A stretch of 64,000 nucleotides of DNA from Adineta vaga. Lineage: Eukaryota > Animalia > Rotifera. Of this stretch, positions 27,002 through 43,836 are shown piece by piece. Each line of letters starts with the position of its first letter. Within the stretch, counting starts at the first letter, position 1. Location: assembly GCA_021613535.1 (NCBI GenBank), contig CP075497.1, positions 11,842,001-11,906,000 on the forward strand. The letters are read 5' to 3'. Below the pieces are notes generated by a model, which worked only from the letters and a program-made list of their open reading frames with translations, ran no database searches and was not told where the DNA came from. The translations under genes were made by a program, and so were the position numbers.

Positions 27002-27054
27002 GGGTGGGTGTGGGTATGAAAGAAGAAGAGATACCCACACCCACACCCACACCC
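27002..27054. repeat. Inverted telomere-like repeat hairpin, TGTGGG / (CCCACA)3
   Basis: TGGGTGTGGGTAT (27005-27017) is the exact reverse complement of ATACCCACACCCA (27031-27043). (CCCACA)3 lies at 27034-27051, and a related motif occurs at about 36500-36533. Confidence 0.75.
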
Positions 27055-27222
27055 CTTGTTTTTCATATTCAACAGAGATGCGATCATGTTTTTTTGATTC
27101 CCTTCATGCCAAGAAAACTTCACATATCTCTGAATGTTTTGTCCAAATAATAATATTAGATTAATCACAATTTCATTTTCTTTGATTTAAACTTATTTTT
27201 TTAAACTTTTTCAGATTTTCAA

Positions 27223-28646
27223 ATGAATGACTCAACTGTTCTCAGTCATATTTATCTGTGTGAATCTTTATGTTATTCTTCTGGAAAGATACGACCATCA
27301 GATTGTACAGAAAGATCCAAACTTCTTTCAAGTTTAGCATTACTTCTAAATGGAAATGCATCATGTACAGCAGTTTATGTTCATCAAGGTGAACGATGTG
27401 TTTTTGTTAGCAGAAATGATCCAATTGCAGCTACTGATGAAAGATATTTTAATGGGTTTTTTCGTTTAATACGAATTTATGCTAATTTATGTTTCAGCAA
27501 TCACCAACAAATAGCTGACGAAGTTCGAGATCAATTACGATGTCATGTTTTAGAATGCAATTCGAAAAAAATCATCCATCGTTTTATTGGTCGAAATGAA
27601 ATGATCATTGATCGATTACAAAAAATGCTTCAATGGAACCAAAAAGAAAAAGATCTCTTTATATCAGAACTTCAATCAAATTCAAAGCTGTACAAGGAAC
27701 GTCCTTTGATGACTGAAAAACTTTGTTTGATTGATGAAAATCAATCGGAAGAAGATTATGTTCAATTCTTATTTGATCAACTTGCCGAATTCATTACAGT
27801 TCGTGAACAATTAATTGATAACAAAGAAAATCCAACTGATCATCAATTATTATCAGCAACAAGGCTTGCTAAAATTCTTTATTCATGACGTTTATTTCAA
27901 TTTATGTTGAATCATTTAGATGAAAATACTGGTGCAGGTGTTTATTATTTTGAAAAAATATCAGCACATGATCGTTCATTACATATGCTTTTAAAATATT
28001 TACATGTTCGTACAAATTATGTTATTGATCTGTATAAAAATATTACATTGAAACTTATTTCATCAATTGAAACAATTAAATACTTATCTGTTACTCCAAG
28101 ACAAGCTTTCGAAAATATCTTCACAAATTTGTGTCATTTAGCAGATGGAGATTTATTAAATATTTTATCAAATATGAAAAGTGAAACATTTTATAATGAA
28201 CATTTAGATAAATTAAAAAGAATTGATAATAATCCTAATCAATCCGTTCATATTCATGCAGAAATATTACCTATTGATCATTGATTAAATATGAATATCA
28301 ATGAAACAAATGGATTGCGAGATGTTGAAATAGGAATTTGAAAATGCCTTGTTTATTATGTTGGTTGTACATCGATTATTTGAACAAAAAATATGATCGT
28401 TGTTTTTGTCAACCATGTACCAATAGAAAAATAGATACCAAATGGTGTTTTCGAGAAAATGAAGATCCAAATATTATCAACATGATCAATCAAGAACTTA
28501 TCACAAGAATCGAACAAGCAATTAAAAAACGATGTACTGATAGTCAACGGACTGATCCAAAGAAAAGTGGCGACATCGACATCATGTCTACTTCAATAGA
28601 AGGAAAGGATTTTGATAGAAAAATATATTATAAAAAGAAGACTTGA
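27223..28646 (+). pseudogene. OTT1508-like nucleic-acid deaminase, copy A, disrupted
   Basis: N-terminal 'LLSSLALLL...CTAV...VFVSRN', catalytic 'HIHAE' (28255) and 'KMPCLLC'. In-frame TGA at 27886, 28282 and 28339, plus a 1-nt frameshift near 28342 relative to copy B. Intronless. Confidence 0.8.
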
Positions 28647-28982
28647 GAATGTATTCGTGTAATAGGTTATTTTTCTTATATGGAAAAGGGTTTAGCAGAA
28701 ATAAACTCTGTGTTGTAATCTCCGCACATACTGACTGTTCATATAATAATATAAATATAATAAAACATTATTACTACTAAAGTTTCATCAAAAGCAACAG
28801 CGAAAGTTATTTTATATTTCATCAATTAATCCAATATCTAATACAATGGAATTGATCCATGAATTTTAGAATGACAATGTAAGATTATTATTATATAAAT
28901 ATCTTTTTTTTTAAAGTTCGTTTTATTTTATAGATACAAAAAAAGAGAAGATTAGTTTATTACTATCAATAGAACATTTCTT

Positions 28983-29138
28983 TCAATCTTCCACAAGTAT
29001 AACATCATTTGTTTGTATATTATCTTCCATGTCATTCACTTCTTCATCAGGTCCAAACTAAACATAAAGAATAAGATTGAATCCATTGAGTGTTATTTTA
29101 ACTTACAAAATATTCGACAAGAGATGGTTTATCTTTTT
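28983..29138 (-). pseudogene. Orphan duplicated 3' end of RAD1 (last exon, last intron, tail of penultimate exon)
   Basis: Matches 42371-42526 and reads FGPDEEVNDMEDNIQTNDVILVED*. Confidence 0.85.
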
Positions 29139-29326
29139 AATCTTTTTATTATATTTAAAATAATTACATGATCACCATCAACTGCCCAACCAGTTGCAAT
29201 ACTTGATGCACAATGTGTTCAATTTGATTATTTACATCTTCACATATTTCATCAGGAAGATTATTATTATGAAACTTAAATGGAGGATCACATTCATGTA
29301 CAAGTAAATAATGAACTATGTTTTAA

Positions 29327-30192
29327 GTGCTACTTATGCTACTGTTAGTATCCGTATATGAAAACATAGGTGGATATGCGAAAGTCTTATTCTTTTTCTA
29401 TGAAAAAGATTTAGCAACTGCGGAAAAGATACTTCCTTCTAATCATCGTGAAGTGGCTGCTTCTTCTAATAACATTGGCTTATTATATGATAAAATGGGC
29501 GAATATTTGAAAACACTTTCATATTAAAAAAAAGTACTTGAAATTCGTTAGAAAATTTTTCCTTCAAATCATCTTGATCTGGATATGACATATAATAATC
29601 TTGGTTATTGTTATGTGATAAGATGGATGATTATTCCAAAGTAATTTTTGCCCTGAAACAATAGTGGAGTATATTTTGCAATAGAACAGTATTTTAAAGC
29701 ACTTCCATACTTACTTGAAGCGATTGAAATAGCTGAACAGAATCTTGCACCAGATCATACGGATTTAGTAACTGCTTATGATAATATTGGTTTCGTCTAC
29801 GATAAAATTGTGAATCAATCTGAAGCATTTATGTACTTTGAAAAATCACTTAATATTCCTATGAAAGTTCTTGCATCAGATGCTTCTAGTCGGATTGGTT
29901 CTTAATAGTAATATTGGTCTAATGCTTTCTGATATGGCAGAAAATGTCAAAGATGTTTCATACTTTGAAAAAGCTGTTTCAAATCGCTGAAAACATTCTT
30001 CCTCGAGATCAATCAGTTTTGGTTAATCTTTGCAACCACATGTGCATTGTCTATATAAATAGTAACGATAACTCAAAAGCATTTTCTTGTTTTAAAAAAG
30101 TATATGAAATTCATCAGAAAATCGATCCTTCAAATCATCCGACGGTAGATGGCAAGGAAATTTTTCTTGAATATCTCAAACGAAGACAATAA
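29327..30192 (+). pseudogene. TPR-repeat (kinesin light chain / NPHP3-like) gene remnant
   Basis: Repeats such as 'EKILPSNHREVAASSNNIGLLYDKMGEY' and 'FPSNHLDLDMTYNNLG'; in-frame stops at 29525 and 29549, and frameshifts. Confidence 0.8.
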
Positions 30193-31634
30193 CTAATGAT
30201 TTTTGTTTATTCCAAAATAAAATCTATCTTCGCTTCACTCTCACACTGATCCATATCAACGGAATAGAATACAATCTCAAAATTTGTCATAAGAATGAAA
30301 AAATAAACAAGATCGATCATTGATTCATGTTTATCAAGAAGAGATAATAACACCTAAAACATTCGAATACATTGACAAGGAATTTTCAGACGTTTAATAT
30401 ATTAATTGAATTTCAAGATGAAAAATATCGCTACATTCAATTTATAACAAAGATAAGTTTTTTATCACATGATCATCTAAAGTAAAAGATTTTATTCTTT
30501 AAACAATAAGAAATGTGTAGAATTTTTCTTCATCTTCTTTTTTTGAATAAGTATGCCTAATCTTTTCAATATGAACATATAGCGCGCCGTCATGGACGTC
30601 GAATAACCAACATGATTGTTCAACTTTGACATATTCTTTCTTCAGTCAATGTTCATTCAGCTCATTTTTTTAGTCTATTCAAGATCATTCGCGTATCTAT
30701 GGCACAAAAAATTTTCTTCTTCCCATATGTTGAAAATTAGTATATTCTTATATGAAAAAGTCATATTAAATACGAAATCTTTTTTATTTATAAAGAGATC
30801 GAACATAATAAATTTGACATAGTTTTTCGTATTTAATTAGTTGAACTTGAAATATTAAACTAACTAATTATTTAAATAAATATCAACATGATTATCTCTA
30901 TTCAAATTCTTCAGAAATCTTTATAAATATTCAATGAAAACATATAATTGATCGATATTGAATTGATTTCAGTAGTATCGAAAAGAAATCTGGTAAAGAG
31001 GGTTATTCTATGTCTTCTCATTAGCTATTAGATGATTATTATAAACAACTTTAGATTTATTCAAACTATCAGTCGACATTATATCTTTTTCTTTTTTTAA
31101 AAGTTATTTTATATTAAATGATATTAACACAAACTGACTTGGTGAAACTTAAAATGAGCTATCTTATCGATAGAATGATGACATCAGATACAGAGTATTT
31201 TTTCTTGTTGTATTTCATGCGAGTTACAATGTAAATAAAGGACTCGTACAAAGCCTTTTTGGTAAAATAAAAAGTTGTCTAATTTACGCGTATGTTCAAA
31301 GATCGACTCTTATTTTACTATGTGAAATCTGTGAATGTTAGGATTTTGTAAAGAATTAACTCGGATATTATCAAAATAGATAATTACTTATTAATAATCA
31401 ATATTAGTTTTCCGTAGGTACAAACATCGTTTAAACAAACAAAGTTTTATGTAGAACTTTTGTTATTTCAATTTTGAAACAAAACTGTCGAAAATATTTA
31501 TTTCCGTTTTTTTTCTATTTCAGAAAAACACAATATGTGTTGAATAGAAAAAAGATCGGACTAAAAATGAATACTTTTATCAATTGATAATTATATACAA
31601 TTTTCATTTATTCGTTTACGGTTGTAAACTTTTG

Positions 31635-33071
31635 TTAAAACTCGAATGACTCATTCTGCTGCATCGGTGTAATTTTGGAATCGATCGTTTTATTGGTATC
31701 ACTATTATCACTAATGGAAAGATGACCATATTGCTTCACTATCCACATAAAACCTTGATAGAGCCACACACCAACAATGGCTCCGATAATTGGACCGATG
31801 ATCGGTACCCAAAAGAAATAGTTATGTACACTAAATACTTCATTCCAACCATAGATAAATGCTCCGAAAAGACGTGGACCAAGATCACGTGCCTAAGTAT
31901 AACAAAATAAAGAGAATAAGACTGTGCTTCAATTAATATATATATAATTTGCATACAGGATTAATTGCAGCACCAGCATTAATTGAAAATCCACAAATAA
32001 TTCCTATAACAATCAATGCAAAGGCAAATGGTTTCATTGCATTTGACATCATATGATTAAATTCCTACACAAAATGACTTCTCAATTACTTATTTATCTA
32101 TTTCAATTGACTCTCTTACGTTCGTCACTGCCATGATAAATATCATCAAAATAGCGGTACCCACAATTTGATCAACGAATGCATTCCAGTTATGTATACC
32201 ACGGATGGCATTGTAAAGAAAATATCAGCTGTACCACTATCACCTGTCATCTGTCTTACACCTCCATCGTATGCATCGAATTGCTTCAAATAGACAAGAT
32301 AGACTAGGGCAGCTCCTAAAAATGCACCCAAAATTTGACCAATAATATAGAAGATACATTGTAATGGTTTCACTTTGCGAATAGTCATTAACGATATACT
32401 CAAGGCTGGATTGAGATGAGCACCTAAAATAATCAATATTGATTTATATTAAATACTATTTTGAATCTTTCTCATACCAGTTATTGATCCAACAAGCATT
32501 AAGGCTACAAAAAACAAGAATAGAAATTAAAATAAATCATTTTTTTGTATATTATAGGAAATAAAGATTGATGAATTTGACTTTTTTTGGAATTTATGAT
32601 TCTATGTTACTATGGATATTATCTTTTTCTTCATGAAATAAGGCTGAAAAGGTGGTCATAAGCAAAGAAAAAAGATTATTATCATATTAGATTAAAAAAC
32701 GATCGATCGATCAAATGTGTAACTGTATATAGTATTTAGATTTGTTCCGGTTGTCATTCTTAGAAGAATTAACTACTACTCATTACAGACAGAAGAATCC
32801 TTTTCGAAATGAAAATAGATTTTATATAATAGTGTTTGAAAAAAAGATCAATGAAGATGATATTCTGATTATTGTCTATATTTTCTATAAATATAACCTG
32901 CATATGTGCCAACACCAAATGCAATGCAATTGGAATTGTAGAATGAAAATTTTGTTGAGTAAATTTATAGTTAGCAATAGAGGCTTCACCAATAAGTATA
33001 AGAATACATGTTGCAAAACATTCCGCTAACAAGTGAACCGCATATTGTTGTAACTCTTTTATATTCACCAT
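31635..33071 (-). pseudogene. Aquaglyceroporin (GlpF/AQP3-like), frameshifted
   Basis: 'LLAECFAT', 'TGAHLNPA', 'AINP|ARDLGPRLF' and 'FFWVPIIGPIIGA'. Apparent 1-nt frameshifts near 32925, 32201 and 31740. Confidence 0.85.
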
Positions 33072-33909
33072 CTTTTGTTTTCCTTTTCTGTTCTAATCGA
33101 AAATAATTGGAGTAGTCTGAATTAAAGTACAAAATAAAAAGATACTTGTATTAATTCTTCATTCTTTTTTTTCTAGTCTCGTTACTGTCATAAAGTTATC
33201 AAGGCCATTGGCTGGCCTCGTAAAAATCATGGACATTTATCTTCTTATAGAAATACAACAATACATCAATTTGACTTCTTAATCTATACTACGACGTATA
33301 AAACCGATAAGAAACAAGTGTTTATATCGGAGTTTAAAATATCATAGAAAACGAAATATTTTTGTCATTTATTCGCTTTTAATATTTATTCGCTTATCGA
33401 GGTTTATCAAATATTTGACAAAGGTTAAATCCGTATAAACTAAACTTATATGAAATACAACGATCAGAAATGAGTTACGTATAGGAAGTTAAACAACTGT
33501 CATGCATGCGATTGTCCTATATTCATTCACTTGTTGACGTATATAGAAAACGTTAAATGAATAACTTATGTATGTGCTATTATCCTAGATATACATCTAA
33601 AGTGATCAGGAATTGATACGATTTTGTTATGCAACTCATGAATTAGGATCGAGAGATTACACTTCAATAGGATTTTATTGTGCATATATGAAGTAATATT
33701 TATATTTATAAAGCGTCATCTTGCCCTGGACAACACAAGACGAAAAATATTTCTCAAACTAAATGATTTTATATCCTTTCTTTTTCAAGACTCAGTTCTA
33801 CTCGTAAGCAAATATTTCTTATCTCCTTTCTCGGTCACCTTTGTTTTATTTTGCGTTCCTCTTCATGTCATTTGCAAAGAGACGAACAATATTTGTTTTG
33901 CGTTTCAGG

Positions 33910-35912
33910 TTACGACTTGGTGAGAACAATTGCTATTGGTTTGTGTGCGGTATATTCGTGTATTGTCGTGGATGGGTGTGGCTGTGTGTATATCTTCTCG
34001 TGATCAGCAATAATAATTTCATCACTTTTATTTATTGGAATGTAATTAAATAAAAAGATTATTATACCACAGATAAACCTAAATAAATCTATTCTCAAGA
34101 AACAAGAAATATCAAGAAAGATAATTTCTACCAGGGACAGTTCGATTTCTGTTTAGAATTCAGTGCCAATTTGAAGACAGATGCATTAGGCCACCAGCCA
34201 AGTAATGTTTTTGATCGAAAACGATTTTTCTGTTGAATTTTCAGTAACAAACCCCATGGAATTTCTTTTGGATAAATTCTAAACAGATATCTAATAAGTA
34301 AAACTAGGAAATTAAAATGAATAACTAACTCATGATCGTCTTCATCAACATCAGCTATATTTTCAAACCAATGATTGATTAATGGTATCATTCGAATTGA
34401 ATAGAATTCTTTTGCTGTTGGTGCCATGATTAAATGTTTTTCAATTTCATTTAATAATCGTCGTTGTTCATTGTCACCTGATTTAACATAAGCAAAAGCA
34501 TTTTGTGCAAGAAGTAATGTTCCAGGTGGAATAATACATTTAGAATAATATTTTCCATGACGATTTTTCATGAATGTTGTATTATAAAAATTGTAATGAT
34601 ATGTTTGAAAATCAAATTGTGTTTTTTGATCAAAATGTTCTTGATGAAACATGGTTTTTAAAGAATAAATTCCATGTGCACATTGATCTTTTAAACGATC
34701 TAAGTTTGCATTAAGTTGTTGATAATCAGATAAATATTTGCAACGTATTTGAGGATCGATTGAGGATGTTTGACTAAGATTAAGAAGTTCAAAAATTGGA
34801 AATGAAAATTCTACTAATGCAATGTTCGCACAAATCAATCGATAAAGACATTTGAAAAATAATTCATCGGATGTTTTATTCAGAAGATGACCAGTAACAA
34901 CAACAGTAGAATCCATACTTGCATCGAAATAAAGACGTTCACGTAAATAGCATGCTGAACGATTTGAATACAATCGAGCAAGATCATGTTGAAATGCATT
35001 TTGAAATAAATTTAATTCATGTTAATTATCTAAAGTTTGATTTTCATGTAAAAGTAAAATGAATAAATGAGAAATAATATCCTACCTTTGGACATGGTCA
35101 TTCGAGCTATAGTAAGAATTCGAGCAATACCAAATGTATAATAATCAATAGCAAATTGTAGATCACCACGAATATAAGCTTGATTACCACGATTTCGTAA
35201 ATCATCGGTTTTTCAAGAACAAAACATTTTTTGATTCGTTCACATAAAATCAAATCGATATTTGGTGCATTACACCGAAGTGTTGGTTGATTATCGATTG
35301 AGCATCTGATCAAAAGTGGATCATATAATTTAATCATACTGCCAATTGGTAAAAGTTCATCCAAAATATGTGATAAAGATTTCATTGATTTCGTTTCATT
35401 TGTTGTTGTTATATAAGACCAATTATTAATTACTAGAAGTAAAATAATGATTCACTGACCGAAAGAATTTATATACGCAGAGAAAAAAGTTTACCTAAAC
35501 GAACATGATAATCAAATTTATCACGAACGACCATATATATGTAGTACCATCAACCATATTCGTTGGTTGAGGTTGTGTTACAATCCATAATGATAATTGA
35601 CAATCATCAGCAACTTCATCTAATTTCATTTCAATTAACGATATATCTGTTCGATGGCAATCATCACATTGATCTTTGTGTTCAATTGTACAACTTAGTG
35701 ATGAATAAGTCAGTACTGGTCGATGAATTTCTTGTTGATCGGGATGTTCTTTATTGAAAAAATTCAATTGTTTGTGGCCTAGAAACAAATACAACAGCAA
35801 GATTTTTTGTTTTATTTTATTATTTGTAGTTTTGAAAGAGTAAATACCAATCAATACGAATGACATAATAATCTTTCTCTGACATTTTACTCTTACAACG
35901 AAGACATTCCAT
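33910..35912 (-). pseudogene. TPR + degenerate SET-domain (SMYD-like) gene, disrupted
   Basis: TPR 'LRNRGNQAY..GDLQFAIDYYT' and 'LYSNRSACYL'; SET-like 'IPPGTLLLAQNAFA' and 'LGWWPNASVF', with no NHSC. In-frame TAA at 35022-35024 and an apparent frameshift near 35210. Confidence 0.6.
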
Positions 35913-36903
35913 GATGAAGATAAATGCTTTTAACACTGATGATTTCGATGATAAATGTGAACAATAGATATACAGACATAGATCGCGCGTGCGTACGCGG
36001 AAGAGAAAAAGGAAAACCGTTAGATGATTTAAAGACACAAAATTATGTAGTTCGTTATCCATGCAATAATCAAGAAGAAAATATTATGAATTTAAATATA
36101 GACTGATAGTAGTACAGACTTGAAAATAAAATTCATTCTAATAATTTGTTCAATCTTCGATATGTACAATATCATTCGCTTGTTTATTATCTTCCTTATT
36201 TTTCAGTTTGTTATCAGGTCTAAACTAAAGATAATTGTGCCGATTTTAGATGCAAGAAGCTAATAGCGCTATATGCTGCGTCGCTTTTGTACAAAACAGT
36301 CATTTATATACTCTCGATAAAAGAAGAAACGGATAAAATGCAGATTAAAAACAAAGATAAAGATAATCTTTTTATCGATCAATAATAGACGGAATGGATT
36401 TCACATCAGCAAAAATGAATTGTTTTGAAAATACTCATTAATGTTCGAATTGATCTTAATATCGCAATAAATACAATGGATGTGTATGGGATAAGGAAAC
36501 ACATCCTCACCCACACCCTCATGCTCAACAGTGATAATAAAAGAAAATACATATAAGAAATATGTGGTAAGAAACAGAGAATTCTTTATCATTCTATTAA
36601 TTTTGTTTTAAATTTCTCTTTAAAATAATCATATCTGTATTTATTATGGCTTATACATTTATTGACTCATTATTATTCAAACTTCTTGTTTTTCTAAATC
36701 CTTTACTCTACGAAATCCTATGTACATATCAACTTTGTATTTTTATGCTCAAACAACAAAATCTTTTAAGATTAATCTGAAACTAATGTCGACGAATAAT
36801 CGAATGAATACTTTGTAAATTGACATGACGATGCATTGATAAGGATAGCGAGTGATTATATATACAATCAATAAAACTATTTTTTATAAAATATTTCATA
36901 ATA

Positions 36904-38388
36904 ATGAATGTATATACGATTTATATCATGGCGTTTTACGCCGTAGCTTCTGGTCATATTCAGCAATGTGTAAGTAATTATTTGTGATGAGAAAAAGAGT
37001 TATTAATTATTGGTTTTATTCTTTAGGATAATATGTCGAGAAAAACAAAACCAATTGTTAATAATATAAATCCAGTATTAATTATCGGAGCTGGATTATC
37101 TGGTTTAGAAGCTGCTCGAATATTAGAACAAAAAGGTATTCAATATTTAATATTGGAAGCACGAAATCGATCAGGTGGCCGTATTTGGTCTTATCGTTCT
37201 CAATCTAATCATATGCTTGATATGGGTGCAACTTGGATTCATGGTATTCATGGATCAATTCCGAGTGGTTTATTAACAAATCCGTGGGATCTTGCACGAG
37301 AAGCAAAACTTCCAACACGAGCAACACAGCTTGATGATATTCTTCAAATCTCTTCAGTTAATGATACTACATCTGATGTTCACCCGTGGTTTAATCAATA
37401 CATTGATTTTGTACGAGAACAAACGCGAATGACTTCAACAAATCTTTCACTTGGTTACTATGCGAATCAATTTGTTAATCAAATGAAATTCAATACAAAA
37501 GAACAATTTACTTTTTATAGTTATTTAAATCATATTATTGAAAATACAGAAGGGGCAGAATTGAATGAGATTGGTGCAAAAAGTTTTCTTGATCTTACAT
37601 CGGTTTATTATGGTGATGAACCAATTTTTCATGATGATGGTTTTATGTCTTTAACAAATTATTTATCGAAGCAAATATCAGATATTCAATTTAATCAAAT
37701 CGTTTCCAAAATAACATTTCATGATCAATCAGTTGAAGTAAGAACAAAAGATGGACAAATTTATCATGCCGAATATGTTCTTCTGACTGTTCCATTAGGA
37801 GTTTTAAAGAGAAAACAGATTGAATTTTCTCCATCATTACCTAAATGGAAATCAGATGCAATCGATCGGATTGGTTATAATATTTTTGAAAAAGTCTTCT
37901 TATTATGGGATCATGCTTGGTGGAATTCTACGAATTTTTATTTCACACATATTTCATCCAATCCAACACGAATGGGTTATTGGGTTAATGCAAACAAATG
38001 GAATGATAAACCTGCTCTTATCTGTTTCTTCTCCGGGAAAACGACACCACAATATTTAGCAATACAAAATCGAAGTATTTTAATCAAAGAACTTCTACAA
38101 GCTTTAGAAGAAATGTTTCCAGGTTATGTTATTCCTCAACCAACTGAAGTTCATGTTACAAATTGGTATGATGATCCATTTTCTTATGGTTCATATTCAT
38201 ATATTTCAACTAAACAAAATTACGATGATCCAATTTACCTATCTGAACCAGTTCATAATCGACTTTTATTTGCAGGAGAAGCAACACATCTTGATACTTA
38301 TGGCTATGCTCATGCTGCATTATCAAGTGCACGAAGAGAAGTTGCTCGTCTTCTATATATTTATAATTTACTATCAAAGAAAAAATGA
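36904..38388 (+). CDS. Flavin-containing amine oxidase (polyamine oxidase/MAO-like), probably secreted
   Basis: 'IIGAGLSGL', 'EARNRSGGRI', 'DMGATWIHG', 'W.DDPFSYGSYS' and 'LFAGEAT'. Exon 36904-36969 (MNVYTIYIMAFYAVASGHIQQC) splices in phase to 37027, and the rest is one exon. Confidence 0.9.
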
Positions 38389-39047
38389 TACAAAAAACTT
38401 AATCAACAACAGTGATATCCATAGAATTACTCATCATGTTTATATGCAAGAAACATCGAAGAATTTTATAACTTGCATCTAAAAGTACGAAAAAATCCTA
38501 TTACATAGAATTTCATGTCACTGGTTTTCTTCAAATAAAGATTAACAATACATTTGTCAATTATTTAAGAATGACGTACATATCAAATCTGAATTTGTAC
38601 GAATTTGTTTAGGTACTTCAATCTCATCACCATCAACTTTTTTTCATTTCATTCATTAAATATTACAAACACTCAATTATATCATCTTCCTAAAGAAAAA
38701 AAATCAGTAGTATAATCTCGAAAGTTGAATTCAACTATTCATCCTCCTTAGACGGGGTATCACTCTGTGTCAATATGCTGATATCCGTCGACACCTTCCC
38801 CTGCACCTCCATCACGAAAATACTATGATAATATAAAGTTTAATCGATGATATAATCTAATTTTATTATTCTAAAATACGTTCAATAATTTCCTTATTAT
38901 TATATTTCAATACAAAAGTAATCTACTTACTTCTACATAAATAGTTATTGCTTCTTTTATTTTAGAAATTACTATTTGAAATTGGACGTCTTGATAAAAA
39001 TAATCAAGTACAAATTTTCGACCAGAATGAAGTGAACCCAAATTAAT

Positions 39048-40060
39048 AACAAGTAACGCTCATTCTTTTGATTCGCTGACCCTTTTCTGAAGGAATGATA
39101 AGCGTGCTCAGCAAACCCATATAGCGGGACTTGAACCTGACCGGATTCGGATCCAACTAAACTTTATACATAAAAGACTTATAAAAGTGTTTTTCATCTT
39201 TTCATTCTTTCTAAGTATCATAAAATCATTGATTGCAAGAGAAAAGGAAAAACAAGTACTGTTTATATACATTCAAGGAATTGATCGCTTGATACTTCTC
39301 AAAAATAGATCACCCGTATTTATTTTCCTTCCTATGAAGCTCTTAAACAAACGTCTAATCAGCATGGTCTATTTTCTACTTTCCTTTCAATCACATGAGT
39401 GTAATGCGAAAGATTCGCTGATCATGTTAGATTACTTTGTAACCGAAGACTTAAAAAATTGGCATGAACGCGTCGTTTCCAGTATAGGCTTCATTCCCCT
39501 TTTCATTTTCAGGAAACAAAAATTTGTCAAATTTGTTCTCGTAGATCATCAAGTAAGCGCGTCCCGAGAAACGTCCAAACCACGTGAAAGTCATTCAAAT
39601 TCATATTCTGAAGTGGCACTCACGGCTAGCCGTTAACATAGACGTCTTTATTGTTTCGTCTATTTTTGATTCATTTCCCAAACGAATAAATAAATTTCCT
39701 TTGCTCTTCGCTTCCAAAGGCACATACTTTGTATTGCTATAAAGGATTCCAGTTCCTTGATTTCGATTACCCTTTTTTCGAACTTTTTATGATATGTTAG
39801 AATTCATCATTTGTTAATTAGCTCATCAGCTAAGTAATTAATTAGAATTTCCAAAAACTAACACCAGATTCGGATTCATCGACCCCGATTACCCCTCAGG
39901 TTAACTTTTTCTCGTCATCCAGATCGGTTTCTAGCACTTTACTGAATGCTGAATTCTGATTGAATGGGCCGGACAGACAAATTTTTTTATTTTTGCATTT
40001 CAAGTCGATGATTTTAACACTGTATCTGTGTAACCCTTTCTTTCAGAAAAGGGAATATAA
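39048..40060. mobile_element. Non-autonomous DINE/HINE-like (Helentron-associated) element
   Basis: 12-bp subterminal inverted repeat CCCTTTTCTGAA (39080-39091) / TTCAGAAAAGGG (40042-40053). Terminal hairpin ACCCTTTC-TTTC-AGAAAAGGG followed by AATATAA, an AACAAG..AACGCT start, and a residual CGGACAGACA microsatellite (~39970). Confidence 0.65.
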
Positions 40061-40310
40061 ACGAACTCCATACTAGGTCATTGTAACGAGATATTGCTAT
40101 ATTCTGGCCTGTATATGCCCTTTAACTCGTCTATGCTAGCATGACCGCTATATCTAACCGATATCCATATTGTTCTCTCCATTGTCTATATAAGCGTGTA
40201 TCTTATAAATAAAGAACAGCTTGTTACGTGAAGAAGCCACATAAAGTGTGTATCCTTGTTCCCAGGCACCTCTCTTCTCAAGTTCCTTACAGTCATGTGA
40301 ATACTACTTT

Positions 40311-42526
40311 TTGTTTTTCATATTCAACAGAGATGCGATCATGTTTTTTCTATTCCATTCATGCCAAGAAAACTTCACATATCTCTGAATGTTTTGTTCA
40401 AATAATAATATTAGATTAATCACAATTTCATTCTCTTCAATTTAAACTTATTTTTAACTTTTTCAGATCTTCAACCAATATTCAACATAGTACAGCACAA
40501 GCTTATTTAGTTGAAATTCATAATACAATCTTCAATATCTTTATTTGTCATTTGTATACATATTCGAGAAGAAATATAAAAGTAGGTTAACTGATATTAA
40601 TGTCATTCTTTTCAATTCTTTTTCAGATTTTCAAATGAATGACTCAACTGTTCTCAGTCATATTTATCTTTGTGAATCTTTATGTTATTCTTCTGAAAAG
40701 ATACGACCATCATACCGTACAGAAAGATCCAAATTTCTTTCGAGTTTAGCATTAATTCTAAATGGAAATGCATCATGTACAGCAGTTTATGTTCTTCAAG
40801 GTGAACAATGTGTTTTGATTAGTAGAAATGGTCCAATTGCAGCTACTGATGAACGATATTTTAATGGTTTTTTTCGTTTAATACGAATTTATGCTAATTT
40901 ATGTTTCAACAATCACCAACAAATAGCTAAAGAAGTTCGAGTTCAATTACAGAAAATGCTTCGATCGAACCAAAAAGAAAAAGATCTCTTTATATCAGAA
41001 CTTCAATCAAATTCAAAGTTCTACAAGGAACATCCTTTAATGACTGAGAAACTTTTTTAATTAAGAAAAATCAATCGGAAGAAGATTATGTTCAATTCTT
41101 ATTTGATCAACTTGCCAAATTCATTACAATTCGTGAACAATTAATTCATAACAAAGAAAATCCAACTGATCATCAATTACCATCAGCAACAGAGCTTGCT
41201 ACAATTCTTTATTCATCACGTTTATTTCAATTTATGTTGAATCATTTAGATGAAAATACTGGTACAGGTAGTTATTATTTTGAAAAAATATCAGCACATG
41301 ATCGTTCATTACAGATTCTTTTCAAATGTTTACATGTTCGTACAGATTATGTTATTGATCTGTATAAAAATATTACATGGAAACTTATTTCATCAATTGA
41401 AACAATTAAATATTTATCTATTACTCCAAGACAAGCTTTTGAGAATATTTTTACATACTTATGTCATTTAGCAGATGGAGATTTATTAGATATTTTATCA
41501 AATATGAAAAGTGAAACATTTTATGATAAACATTTACTTAAATTAAAAAGAATTGATAATAATCGTAATCAATCCGTTCATATTCATGCAGAAATATTAC
41601 TTATTAATCATTTATTAAATATGAATATCAATGAAACAAATGGTTCACAAGATATTGAAATAGGAATTTCAAAAATGCCTTGTTTATTATGTTGGTTGTA
41701 CATGAATTATTTGAACAAATAATATGATCGTTATTTTTGTCAACCATGTACCAATGGAAAAATAGATACCAAATGGTGTTTTCGAGAAAATGAAGATCCA
41801 GATATTATCAACATGATCAATCAAGAACCTATTACAAGAATCGAACAAGCAATTAAAAAACAATGTATTGATAGTCAACGGACTAATCTAACGGAAAGTG
41901 ACGACATCGACATCTTTTCTACTTCATTAGAAGGAGACGATTTTGATAGAAAAATATATTATAAAAAGAACATTTGAGAATGTATTCGTGTAATAAGTTT
42001 GTTGGTAAATAAAACTTGATTTTTTTTGAAAAATTAATAGGTTAGTTTCGATAGTTTTTTTTCTTATATGGAAAAGGATTTAGCAAAAATAAACTCTTTG
42101 TTGTAATCTCCGCACTTACTGACTGTTCATGTAATAATATAAATATAATAAAACCTTATTACTACTAAAGCTTCATCAAAAGCAACAACGAAAGTTATTT
42201 TATATTCCATCAATTAATCCAATATCTGATACAATGGAATTAATGGATGAATTTTAGAATGACAATGAAAGATTATTATTATATAAATATCTTTTTTTTT
42301 AAAGTTCGTTTTATTTTATAGATACAAAAAAAGAGAACATTAGTTTATTACTATCAATGGAATATTTCGTTCAATCTTCCACAAGTATAACATCATTTGT
42401 TTGTGTATTATCTTCCATCTCATTCATTTCTTCATCAGGTCCAAACTAAACATAAACAATAAGATTAAATCCATCGAGTGTTATTTTAACTTACAAAATA
42501 TTCGACAAGTGATGGTTTATCTTTTT
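40311..42526 (+). repeat. Segmental direct duplication, copy B (paired with 27056-29138)
   Basis: Colinear with copy A and contains the native 3' end of RAD1. Confidence 0.95.
40635..41977 (+). pseudogene. OTT1508-like nucleic-acid deaminase, copy B, disrupted
   Basis: 'HIHAEILL...IEIGISKMPCLLC' lies in one frame (ORF 41234-41722). Lesions are an 81-nt in-frame deletion near 40950, a frameshift with stop at ~41058, and AAA>TAA at 41720. Confidence 0.8.
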
Positions 42527-43674
42527 CGGTATAAATCAAAAATTGAGCACAAAGAATACCAGCAGCATCAATACGTAATGAAAGTTTACTGGCAATGGAT
42601 AATGCTCGAACAATATATTGAAAAAATTGAGTTTTATATCTAAATAAAACAGTAAAATCTATTGAAATAGAATGAAGATTACCGATTATGAACTGATTCT
42701 GTACATAAAAATGTGTCCATTACAGGTGAATCTTGTGTTATATCAACAGATGTACTACCACCACATCCATCTGCAATCAACCGAAAATGTGGATCATCTT
42801 GAGTTATCAATAATTCAATACCTTTAATAAAGAATATGAAACAATTTCGAAAAAGAAAAAAGTATCAGATGTTATTACAATCAGCTTTGAGATCGATTTC
42901 ACTAAGTGCTTCTTTGAAACCACTTGCCTAAAACATGTTTACAACTGAAAAAGAAAAGAATCTATCTTCAAATTCATATCTTACTTTAAAGACGACTTTT
43001 GTTACAACATTTTCTGTCTGAAAATCAAAATCAATTGTTTCTGTATCATCCAATACTTTAATTAAACATTCAGTTATAACACCTTCTTCCTCTAAGCTAA
43101 AAAAAGGTCGAATAAAGATATTTGAAATTCTTTCATCCATCATAACTTACTAAAGTTGTAATGGATGAGTTTGATTTTCTCGATAATGAATTTGTACAGC
43201 AACATTTGTTGGTAATGGTTCATGTGTAACAGGATCAAGTGGAATACCAAAAATATTCAAACAATTCTAAATCAAATATGAAAATGAAAAGACGAAGAAA
43301 ATAAACGATCATACAAGAACAGTTTCAAGATGAAATCGAAATCGAACTTGACGTTTCAATTCATACGAATCAAAAACACGTGTATCAATAAAAGCATTGC
43401 CTTGTACACATTGTTTATCTTCTACAATGATTTTGATTCCCGTTGGTAATGCACAAAAGATTGCATCCTAAAATGAAAAACGACAGTTAATCTTTTTATC
43501 GATGAAAGAAATTTTTACATCAGCAAAATGAATTGTTTTGAGAATATTAGCTAATGTTCGACTAGATTTTAATTTTGCAATAAATGCAATATCATCATTT
43601 TCATCGGATTCTTGTTCATTAGGATTATTTTCTTCTTCGTCAGTATCTTCTTGATGGGTATCGAATAATGACAT
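42371..43674 (-). CDS. RAD1: Checkpoint clamp (9-1-1) subunit RAD1, multi-exon
   Basis: 'LANILKTIHF', 'GIKIIVEDKQCVQGNAFI', 'CLNIFG', 'LEEEGVITECLI' and 'ALSIASKLSLRIDAAGILCAQF'. Confidence 0.9.
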
Positions 43675-43836
43675 AGTGAATAAATGTACAGAAATGAAAA
43701 AAAAAGAATATATACGTGATCTGATCTTTAGTTCTATTGGTTGAATTTCCGTACGAATTGTAACGAATGCGTTGAAAATTCTGTTCTGATCTTTTACAGA
43801 GTTTTTCTTTCGTTTGTTTAGATCAAAAGGTGAATA

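What the first reader, a model, noticed from the sequence alone, without database searches (positions are those of the whole stretch)
27223..41977. Twin OTT1508-like nucleic-acid deaminase genes with fully complementary lesions
Seen: two intronless paralogues 13 kb apart. Together they reconstruct a ~474-aa protein with HxE ('HIHAE'), 'IGISKMPCLLC' and a downstream 'NGKI..KW'. Copy A is broken at 27886, 28282 and 28339, and copy B at ~40950, ~41058 and 41720. Each copy is intact exactly where the other is broken, and copy B keeps HAE and PCxxC in one 162-aa ORF (41234-41722). Known: this motif set fits the OTT1508-type clade of the CDA-fold deaminase superfamily, described mainly from intracellular bacteria and fungi as toxin/effector deaminases rather than from animals. 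Inference: a horizontally acquired mutator, toxin or antiviral editing family undergoing birth and death in an animal. The two copies were inactivated independently after duplication and could in principle be restored by gene conversion. This is the best candidate here for an undescribed system.
Basis: partly seen in the sequence, partly recalled or inferred. Interest (0 to 1): 0.82.

Follow-up and report, generated by a model that had tools for sequence, protein, structure and literature searches.

The report
Dead rotifer copies, live deaminase family
The two genes are broken, likely neutrally decaying duplicates in a bdelloid rotifer, and their "complementary" damage is what chance gives; the point of interest is their family, which is intact in other bdelloids and is built like the fungal enzymes that edit RNA in antiviral defence, so it may do a similar job in an animal.

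Summary
All six lesions are where stated, and the family is Pfam OTT_1508_deam (34.9 bits, cut-off 27). The window matches Adineta vaga gene models. The two copies lie in a 2.1-kb duplication, 7% diverged, that also carries the 3' tail of Rad1. They evolve without detectable constraint (dN/dS 0.87, P=0.51). Independent lesions miss each other in 83% of simulations, so complementarity shows only that both copies died after duplicating. The 162-aa ORF lacks the predicted N-terminal helix and two strands of the fold. A third copy on the same chromosome also looks broken.

Intact 465-490-aa relatives occur in Rotaria and Didymodactylos, in two subfamilies; one intact metagenomic pair gives dN/dS 0.23. 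They have the large helical insert described for fungal members, and their nearest Atlas clusters are fungal. Fungal members (OLD) are known A-to-I mRNA editors in antiviral defence, so this is not an undescribed kind of system. I found no paper reporting the family in rotifers. Donor, substrate and function are untested, and three of the six lesions were not seen in independent data.

The parts
27056..29138 (+). Copy A of the 2.1-kb duplicated segment; likely the derived copy, since it carries only an orphan tail of Rad1
27223..28646 (+). Deaminase pseudogene A (stops at 27886-27888 and 28282-28284, 1-nt deletion after 28339); matches gene model I4U23_031018
   Evidence: second stop and frameshift also in run X3
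40311..42526 (+). Copy B of the duplicated segment, adjoining the Rad1 gene
40635..41977 (+). Deaminase pseudogene B (81-nt in-frame deletion after 40945, 1-nt deletion after 41055, stop at 41720-41722); matches gene model I4U23_031022
   Evidence: 81-nt skip also in runs X1 and X3
41234..41722 (+). 162-aa ORF with HAE, GISK and PCxxC; lacks the predicted helix 1 and strands 1-2 of the fold and the conserved C-terminal loop
40582..40626 (+). Likely 45-nt GT-AG intron in the 5' UTR of copy B; copy A lacks a 157-nt piece here, between short TTTTTCAGAT repeats
   Evidence: sequence; no RNA support
28920..29138 (-). Orphan 3' tail of Rad1 carried along in copy A; a 49-nt intron (29058-29106) is skipped in contigs of two RNA-type runs, which continue into copy B's flank
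42340..43700 (-). Rad1 (9-1-1 clamp) gene convergent with copy B; ends approximate
   Evidence: PF02144 in 4 exon-sized ORFs

Best explanation
The two loci are broken, likely neutrally decaying duplicates of a bdelloid OTT_1508-type deaminase gene whose intact relatives are predicted to be intracellular zinc deaminases, likely gained from fungi and likely editing RNA in defence as fungal OLD enzymes do.

Shown: a 2.1-kb segment with the gene and the Rad1 tail is present twice, each copy carries three private lesions, and the copies differ equally at silent and replacement sites. Inferred: the gene was intact and constrained when it duplicated, copy A is the daughter, and both copies were then lost. 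Predicted for intact relatives: His of HxE and CxxC bind zinc, Glu activates water, and a ~270-residue helical insert between strand 2 and the HxE helix presents the substrate. The confidence below is for the pseudogene reading. I put fungal origin at about 0.6, and RNA editing in defence at about 0.4 against DNA mutation or other substrates.
For: A vs B: 440 codons, dS 0.082, dN 0.071, dN/dS 0.87, Fisher P=0.51; coding divergence 7.2% against 4.6-6.3% in flanks. A/B differences fall on conserved and variable columns without significant bias (11 of 112 vs 46 of 298, P=0.15). Changes shared by A and B avoid conserved columns (7 of 112 vs 120 of 298, P=7e-13), and 5 of 5 pairs of database relatives show such avoidance in a leave-pair-out control (P from 0.004 to 2e-9). 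Intact metagenomic pair L002/L003: dN/dS 0.23 over 472 codons; copy A vs L001 0.36. 51 of 55 proteins of 440-520 aa keep both HxE and GxxK..CxxC (the 55 include cluster duplicates and two non-full-length entries). A, B and the third A. vaga copy form one clade (SH-aLRT 100, quick tree of 58 rows). The model of an intact relative (pLDDT 85) places helix 29-42 and strands 48-63 before the insert; solved deaminases align across model residues 24-460. Nearest Atlas clusters are fungal PF14441 proteins of 443-531 aa (0.95-0.96). No strongly hydrophobic N-terminal stretch in 10 of 10 relatives.
Against: Three lesions are unseen in independent data, and the other haplotype was not seen, so an intact allele is not excluded. 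The conserved-column test trends slightly towards constraint (9.8% vs 15.4%) and has limited power. Structural matches to deaminases are weak (Z 4.5-4.9, within background; Foldseek found none at E<=0.001). No fungal or bacterial sequence was recovered in four protein searches, so the donor is untested. No zinc-finger (zao-like) neighbour was found. Iyer et al. predicted cytosine deamination for this clade.
Confidence: 0.8

Rival explanations
1. One locus is still functional: some lesions are errors of a collapsed haploid assembly or sit on one haplotype only, or copy B yields a spliced, C-terminally shortened enzyme like its 318-aa gene model.
For: B's frameshift lies in a T run and was not among the listed indels in two DNA runs. 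The database model of B splices round it and keeps helix 1, strands 1-2, HAE and PCxxC. OTT_1508 members can have degraded C-termini (PMC3239186).
Against: dN/dS between copies is about 1. B would still lack 27 residues of the insert and everything after residue 389, including the conserved GKIY..W and SGDSD motifs. No protein of 90% or more identity to either model is in the collection (clusters of 1).
Confidence: 0.12
2. The copies are a reservoir kept for repair or diversification by gene conversion.
For: In the three-way protein comparison the third copy sides with B or with A in blocks (15 runs among 43 sites, P=0.015), which fits past exchange between paralogues. Allelic recombination is documented in A. 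vaga (PMC8494291).
Against: Non-overlap of lesions is expected by chance (0.83). The longest identical A/B run is 69 nt against a median expectation of 76. Lesions of the two copies interleave along the gene. The third copy also appears broken. The block pattern could come from assembly mosaicism.
Confidence: 0.04
3. The intact family are AID/APOBEC-like cytosine mutators of viral or transposon DNA rather than A-to-I RNA editors; the window copies are dead either way.
For: Iyer et al. grouped OTT_1508 with AID/APOBEC and predicted cytosine deamination. Weak APOBEC_N hits (E 0.0008-0.004, below cut-off). Rapid turnover and the lack of a zao-like neighbour fit a stand-alone restriction factor.
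Against: The only members with a function reported in the papers I read, fungal OLD-1 and OLD-2, are A-to-I mRNA editors, and the bdelloid proteins resemble the fungal type. No excess of C>T/G>A among polarised changes in the copies (22 of 75, against 30 of 75 A>G/T>C), though that tests little.
Confidence: 0.3
4. The family is an old animal lineage lost in most phyla, not a horizontal acquisition.
For: Trichoplax has a member (PMC3239186). The bdelloid family is old and diverse, with divergent members in Didymodactylos.
Against: The best Atlas clusters are fungal. About 8% of A. vaga genes are horizontal-transfer candidates (PMC8494291).
Confidence: 0.15

Closest known systems
OTT_1508-like deaminase clade (Pfam PF14441; Iyer et al. 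2011, PMC3239186)
   Same: [quoted passage not shown]
   Different: Rotifers are not in that paper's distribution list. The loop reads GKIYxxW, mostly without the Pro of 'axxP' in the window's subfamily. No secretion or delivery domain. The window copies are broken.
Fungal OLD-ZAO A-to-I editing system (Neurospora OLD-1/OLD-2; known to me through commentaries PMC12754623 and PMC13327615, not the primary paper)
   Same: Same Pfam family and catalytic motif; size similar to the fungal PF14441 clusters in the Atlas; eukaryotic; prone to duplication.
   Different: No zinc-finger neighbour found here. The window's stops are TGA and TAA plus frameshifts, not the UAG that OLD corrects. No activity shown. 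I had no OLD sequence to align.
AID/APOBEC deaminases
   Same: Same division of the fold, paralogue turnover, proposed defence role.
   Different: APOBEC_N scores below cut-off (18-20 bits vs 25); large helical insert; GxxK motif.

Membership tests
OTT_1508-like deaminase (PF14441) | Pfam score above the gathering cut-off (27) | tested here: met
   34.9 bits for window 41048-41719; 40-53 bits for 6 of 6 full-length relatives of the two subfamilies
OTT_1508-like deaminase (PF14441) | HxE and CxxC with GxxK before CxxC | tested here: met
   Both copies; 51 of 55 proteins of 440-520 aa
OTT_1508-like deaminase (PF14441) | Loop after strand 4 with a polar residue and axxP | tested here: inconclusive
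   H/N-G-K-I-Y-x-x-W is conserved; Pro follows the aromatic mainly in the second subfamily (HGKIYPNW); window copies read IDTKW
OTT_1508-like deaminase, fungal type | [quoted passage not shown] | tested here: met
   Predicted model: strands 48-63, mostly helical 69-336, HAE at 345; deaminase alignments span the insert
Deaminase fold | Clear structural match to solved deaminases | tested here: inconclusive
   4 deaminase-type chains among 50 rows at Z 4.5-4.9 (rmsd 4.1-5.0, 90-109 aligned), within background; Foldseek none
OLD-ZAO system | Adjacent zinc-finger gene with an editable UAG | tested here: not met
   No C2H2, Zn2Cys6 or CCHC pattern in six frames of the window or 4 short loci, one stop allowed; neighbours are TPR, MIP, amine oxidase, Rad1, caspase-like (18 ORFs). 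Intron-split fingers could be missed, and the flanks of most intact relatives were not available.
OLD-ZAO system | A-to-I editing of mRNA, induced by virus | not testable with these tools
   No raw RNA reads or assays
Bacterial polymorphic toxin / effector deaminases | Secretion or delivery domain, or immunity neighbour | tested here: not met
   No such Pfam domain in the 6 full-length relatives of the two subfamilies, no strongly hydrophobic N-terminus in 10 of 10, no relative found in genome contigs or viral contigs
Functional gene (window copies) | Intact frame under purifying selection | tested here: not met
   Three lesions each; dN/dS 0.87

The most novel reading that the evidence does not exclude
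Bdelloid rotifers took a fungal OLD-type deaminase early in their history and run it as an ADAR-independent A-to-I mRNA editor that switches on defence genes by correcting stop codons, with paralogues turning over in an arms race; A. vaga would be a natural loss-of-function lineage for this subfamily.
Probability: 0.2. Interest if true: 0.8.

Novelty: new member of a known kind. Interest (0 to 1): 0.33.

Why it matters
The window pair itself is ordinary: two pseudogenes. The family behind it matters more. It is an expanded set of fungal-type OTT_1508 deaminases in an animal class known for borrowing defence genes, with signs of purifying selection where I could measure it. Fungal members of the family are a recently found third route to A-to-I mRNA editing. 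If the rotifer enzymes do the same, it would be an ADAR-independent mRNA editing system in an animal, testable with matched DNA and RNA data from Rotaria.

Tried and rejected
No own genome was held, so paralogues were found only through protein databases, and the third copy's DNA was not seen.

No RNA holder was listed for the region. Contigs of two RNA-type runs covered only the spliced Rad1 tail and TPR fragments, not the deaminase; this is no evidence on expression. No displayed contig spanned copy A's junctions, and one bin right of copy A had no cover.

No relatives were found in genome contigs (0 of 53 candidate stretches) or viral contigs (0 of 21). No deaminase hit came from PDB sequences, PADLOC (only ankyrin hits in P0065) or Foldseek on PDB and BFVD. 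A search aimed at fungal relatives returned 35 hits, all 25 named ones Rotaria. None of 6 exact window ORF products is in the protein collection.

Searches used an out-of-frame first segment for copy B; the column and three-way tests were redone, and I do not use the copy B vs L001 figure. L001 vs L004 gave dN/dS 1.03 over 154 codons; L004 is itself frameshifted, so I read it as another broken copy, not positive selection, though a contig error is possible.

Rejected: rescue of the window stops by OLD-type UAG editing (wrong codons, plus frameshifts); uncollapsed alleles (about 7% divergence against 1.7% mean heterozygosity; 27 of 30 displayed variant positions inside the unit are A/B differences).

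Literature: 'OTT_1508'+'rotifer' gave only Iyer 2011, where rotifers appear under the DYW clade. 'PF14441' gave none. 'bdelloid'+'deaminase'+'RNA editing' gave 5 papers, seen as listings only, none on this family by title. Supplements of PMC11258130 had no hit in 13 of 16 files (files 9, 11, 16 unsearched, one more too large, some cut). The one supplement of PMC12220480 is cut and showed no row for these genes. Unseen parts may hold expression data. The library lacks most subscription papers. Earlier findings of this scan held nothing relevant.
Full report
Observation. Both copies and all six lesions are at the stated places. The repeat is larger than the genes: 27056-29138 matches 40311-42526 and ends inside the last exons of a convergent Rad1 gene. 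Only copy B adjoins the rest of Rad1, so copy A is likely the daughter (inference). The coding region has no intron, but copy B has a likely 5' UTR intron at 40582-40626 (sequence only).

Host and family. The best hits are Adineta vaga gene models I4U23_031018 and I4U23_031022, which match copies A and B. A third copy on the same 13.9-Mb contig is split into models of 298 and 118 aa, neither holding the HAE segment; I did not see its DNA. Window 41048-41719 scores 34.9 bits on Pfam OTT_1508_deam, cut-off 27. Relatives of 465-490 aa are named from Rotaria and Didymodactylos, with partial ones from Adineta steineri. All named hits are bdelloid (10 of 28, 17 of 50 and 25 of 35 named). Of 55 proteins of 440-520 aa, 51 keep HxE and GxxK..CxxC (includes cluster duplicates). 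A quick tree of 58 rows (careful search unfinished; most partial proteins left out) shows two subfamilies of 34 and 22 rows (SH-aLRT 86 and 99), several rows per Rotaria species that may include alleles, and the three A. vaga copies as one recent clade. A more divergent Didymodactylos member aligns over 279 columns (probability 99.3).

Are the lesions real? In contigs of independent DNA runs, one contig spans A's second stop and frameshift with no difference, and the 81-nt skip appears in two runs. The other three lesions were not in the displayed rows, and B's frameshift lies in a T run. Sequence of both types is present: 27 of 30 displayed variant positions inside the unit are A/B differences. 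About 7% divergence is well above the 1.7% allelic level reported for A. vaga (PMC8494291, passages). The second haplotype was not seen.

Are the copies dead? A against B gives dN/dS 0.87 over 440 codons (P=0.51), and coding divergence (7.2%) is no lower than in flanks (4.6-6.3%). Their differences show no significant avoidance of conserved columns (11 of 112 vs 46 of 298, P=0.15), whereas changes they share do (7 of 112 vs 120 of 298), as do 5 of 5 pairs of database relatives. An intact metagenomic pair gives 0.23. So the gene was constrained until it duplicated and was released afterwards (inference).

Complementarity. Three plus three independent lesions miss each other in 83% of simulations, even with one 27-codon deletion. 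This shows only that loss followed duplication. The longest identical A/B run (69 nt) is below the median expectation (76).

The 162-aa ORF. A model of an intact relative (pLDDT 85) splits the predicted deaminase core: helix 29-42 and strands 48-63, an insert of about 270 mostly helical residues, then HAE, GISK and CxxC. Four deaminase-type structures align across that span, at weak Z of 4.5-4.9. The ORF covers residues 228-389 only, so it is unlikely to fold into an enzyme (inference).

Mechanism of the intact family. Iyer et al. [quoted passage not shown] Two commentaries (PMC12754623, parts 1-2 of 3; PMC13327615, passages) report that Neurospora OLD proteins of this family edit UAG to UIG in neighbouring zinc-finger transcripts during virus infection; I did not read the primary paper. 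The bdelloid proteins have the fungal layout. Their nearest Atlas clusters are fungal, for the whole protein (0.95-0.96) and for residues 1-335 (0.91-0.92); these count as one source and are leads only. They lack a strongly hydrophobic N-terminus. I therefore favour an intracellular RNA editor used in defence (about 0.4) over a DNA cytosine mutator (about 0.3), and fungal origin at about 0.6. Against this, no zinc-finger neighbour was found and no fungal sequence was recovered for a tree.

Verdict. The window holds two ordinary pseudogenes, and their complementary lesions carry no signal. The family is a new host range for a known clade. My searches found no paper on it in rotifers (supplements only partly seen). 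It deserves a follow-up in species with intact copies. Interest 0.33.

Noticed in passing
window:27034-27051: Three tandem CCCACA hexamers, the reverse complement of the A. vaga telomeric repeat TGTGGG (PMC7943196, passages), end 4 nt before copy A's left junction. It is the only such tandem run in the window, and an inverted partner at 27002-27017 could form a hairpin. It may be a scar of break healing.
   Followed up: partly
window:36140-36477: Older, about 79% identical fragments of Rad1 (matching 42361-42455 and 43485-43590), so this region duplicated pieces of Rad1 more than once.
   Followed up: no
window:27533-27615 vs 40945; 27196 vs 40452-40608: Both large deletions (81 nt in B, 157 nt in A) lie between short direct repeats, as microhomology-mediated repair would leave.
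   Followed up: partly
window:29300-30200: Fragmented TPR gene right of copy A, with many similar contigs elsewhere in the DNA runs.
   Followed up: no
window:27223-28646: A>G is the commonest derived change on the sense strand of copy A (14 of 37), and purine transitions outnumber pyrimidine ones between the copies (54 vs 29, P=0.03). Possibly chance or a transcription-linked bias.
   Followed up: partly
P0065, P0068 (Didymodactylos carnosus): A divergent OTT_1508 deaminase is annotated as fused to ACBP-ankyrin and, in P0068, a tRNA synthetase; probably merged gene models.
   Followed up: no
L004:582-1198: A metagenomic relative also shifts frame near codon 155: another broken copy or a contig error.
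   Followed up: partly
window:12263-13813 and 37027-38388: Long uninterrupted ORFs (516 aa, not scanned; 453-aa flavin amine oxidase) in an otherwise intron-rich window; possible further horizontally acquired genes.
   Followed up: no
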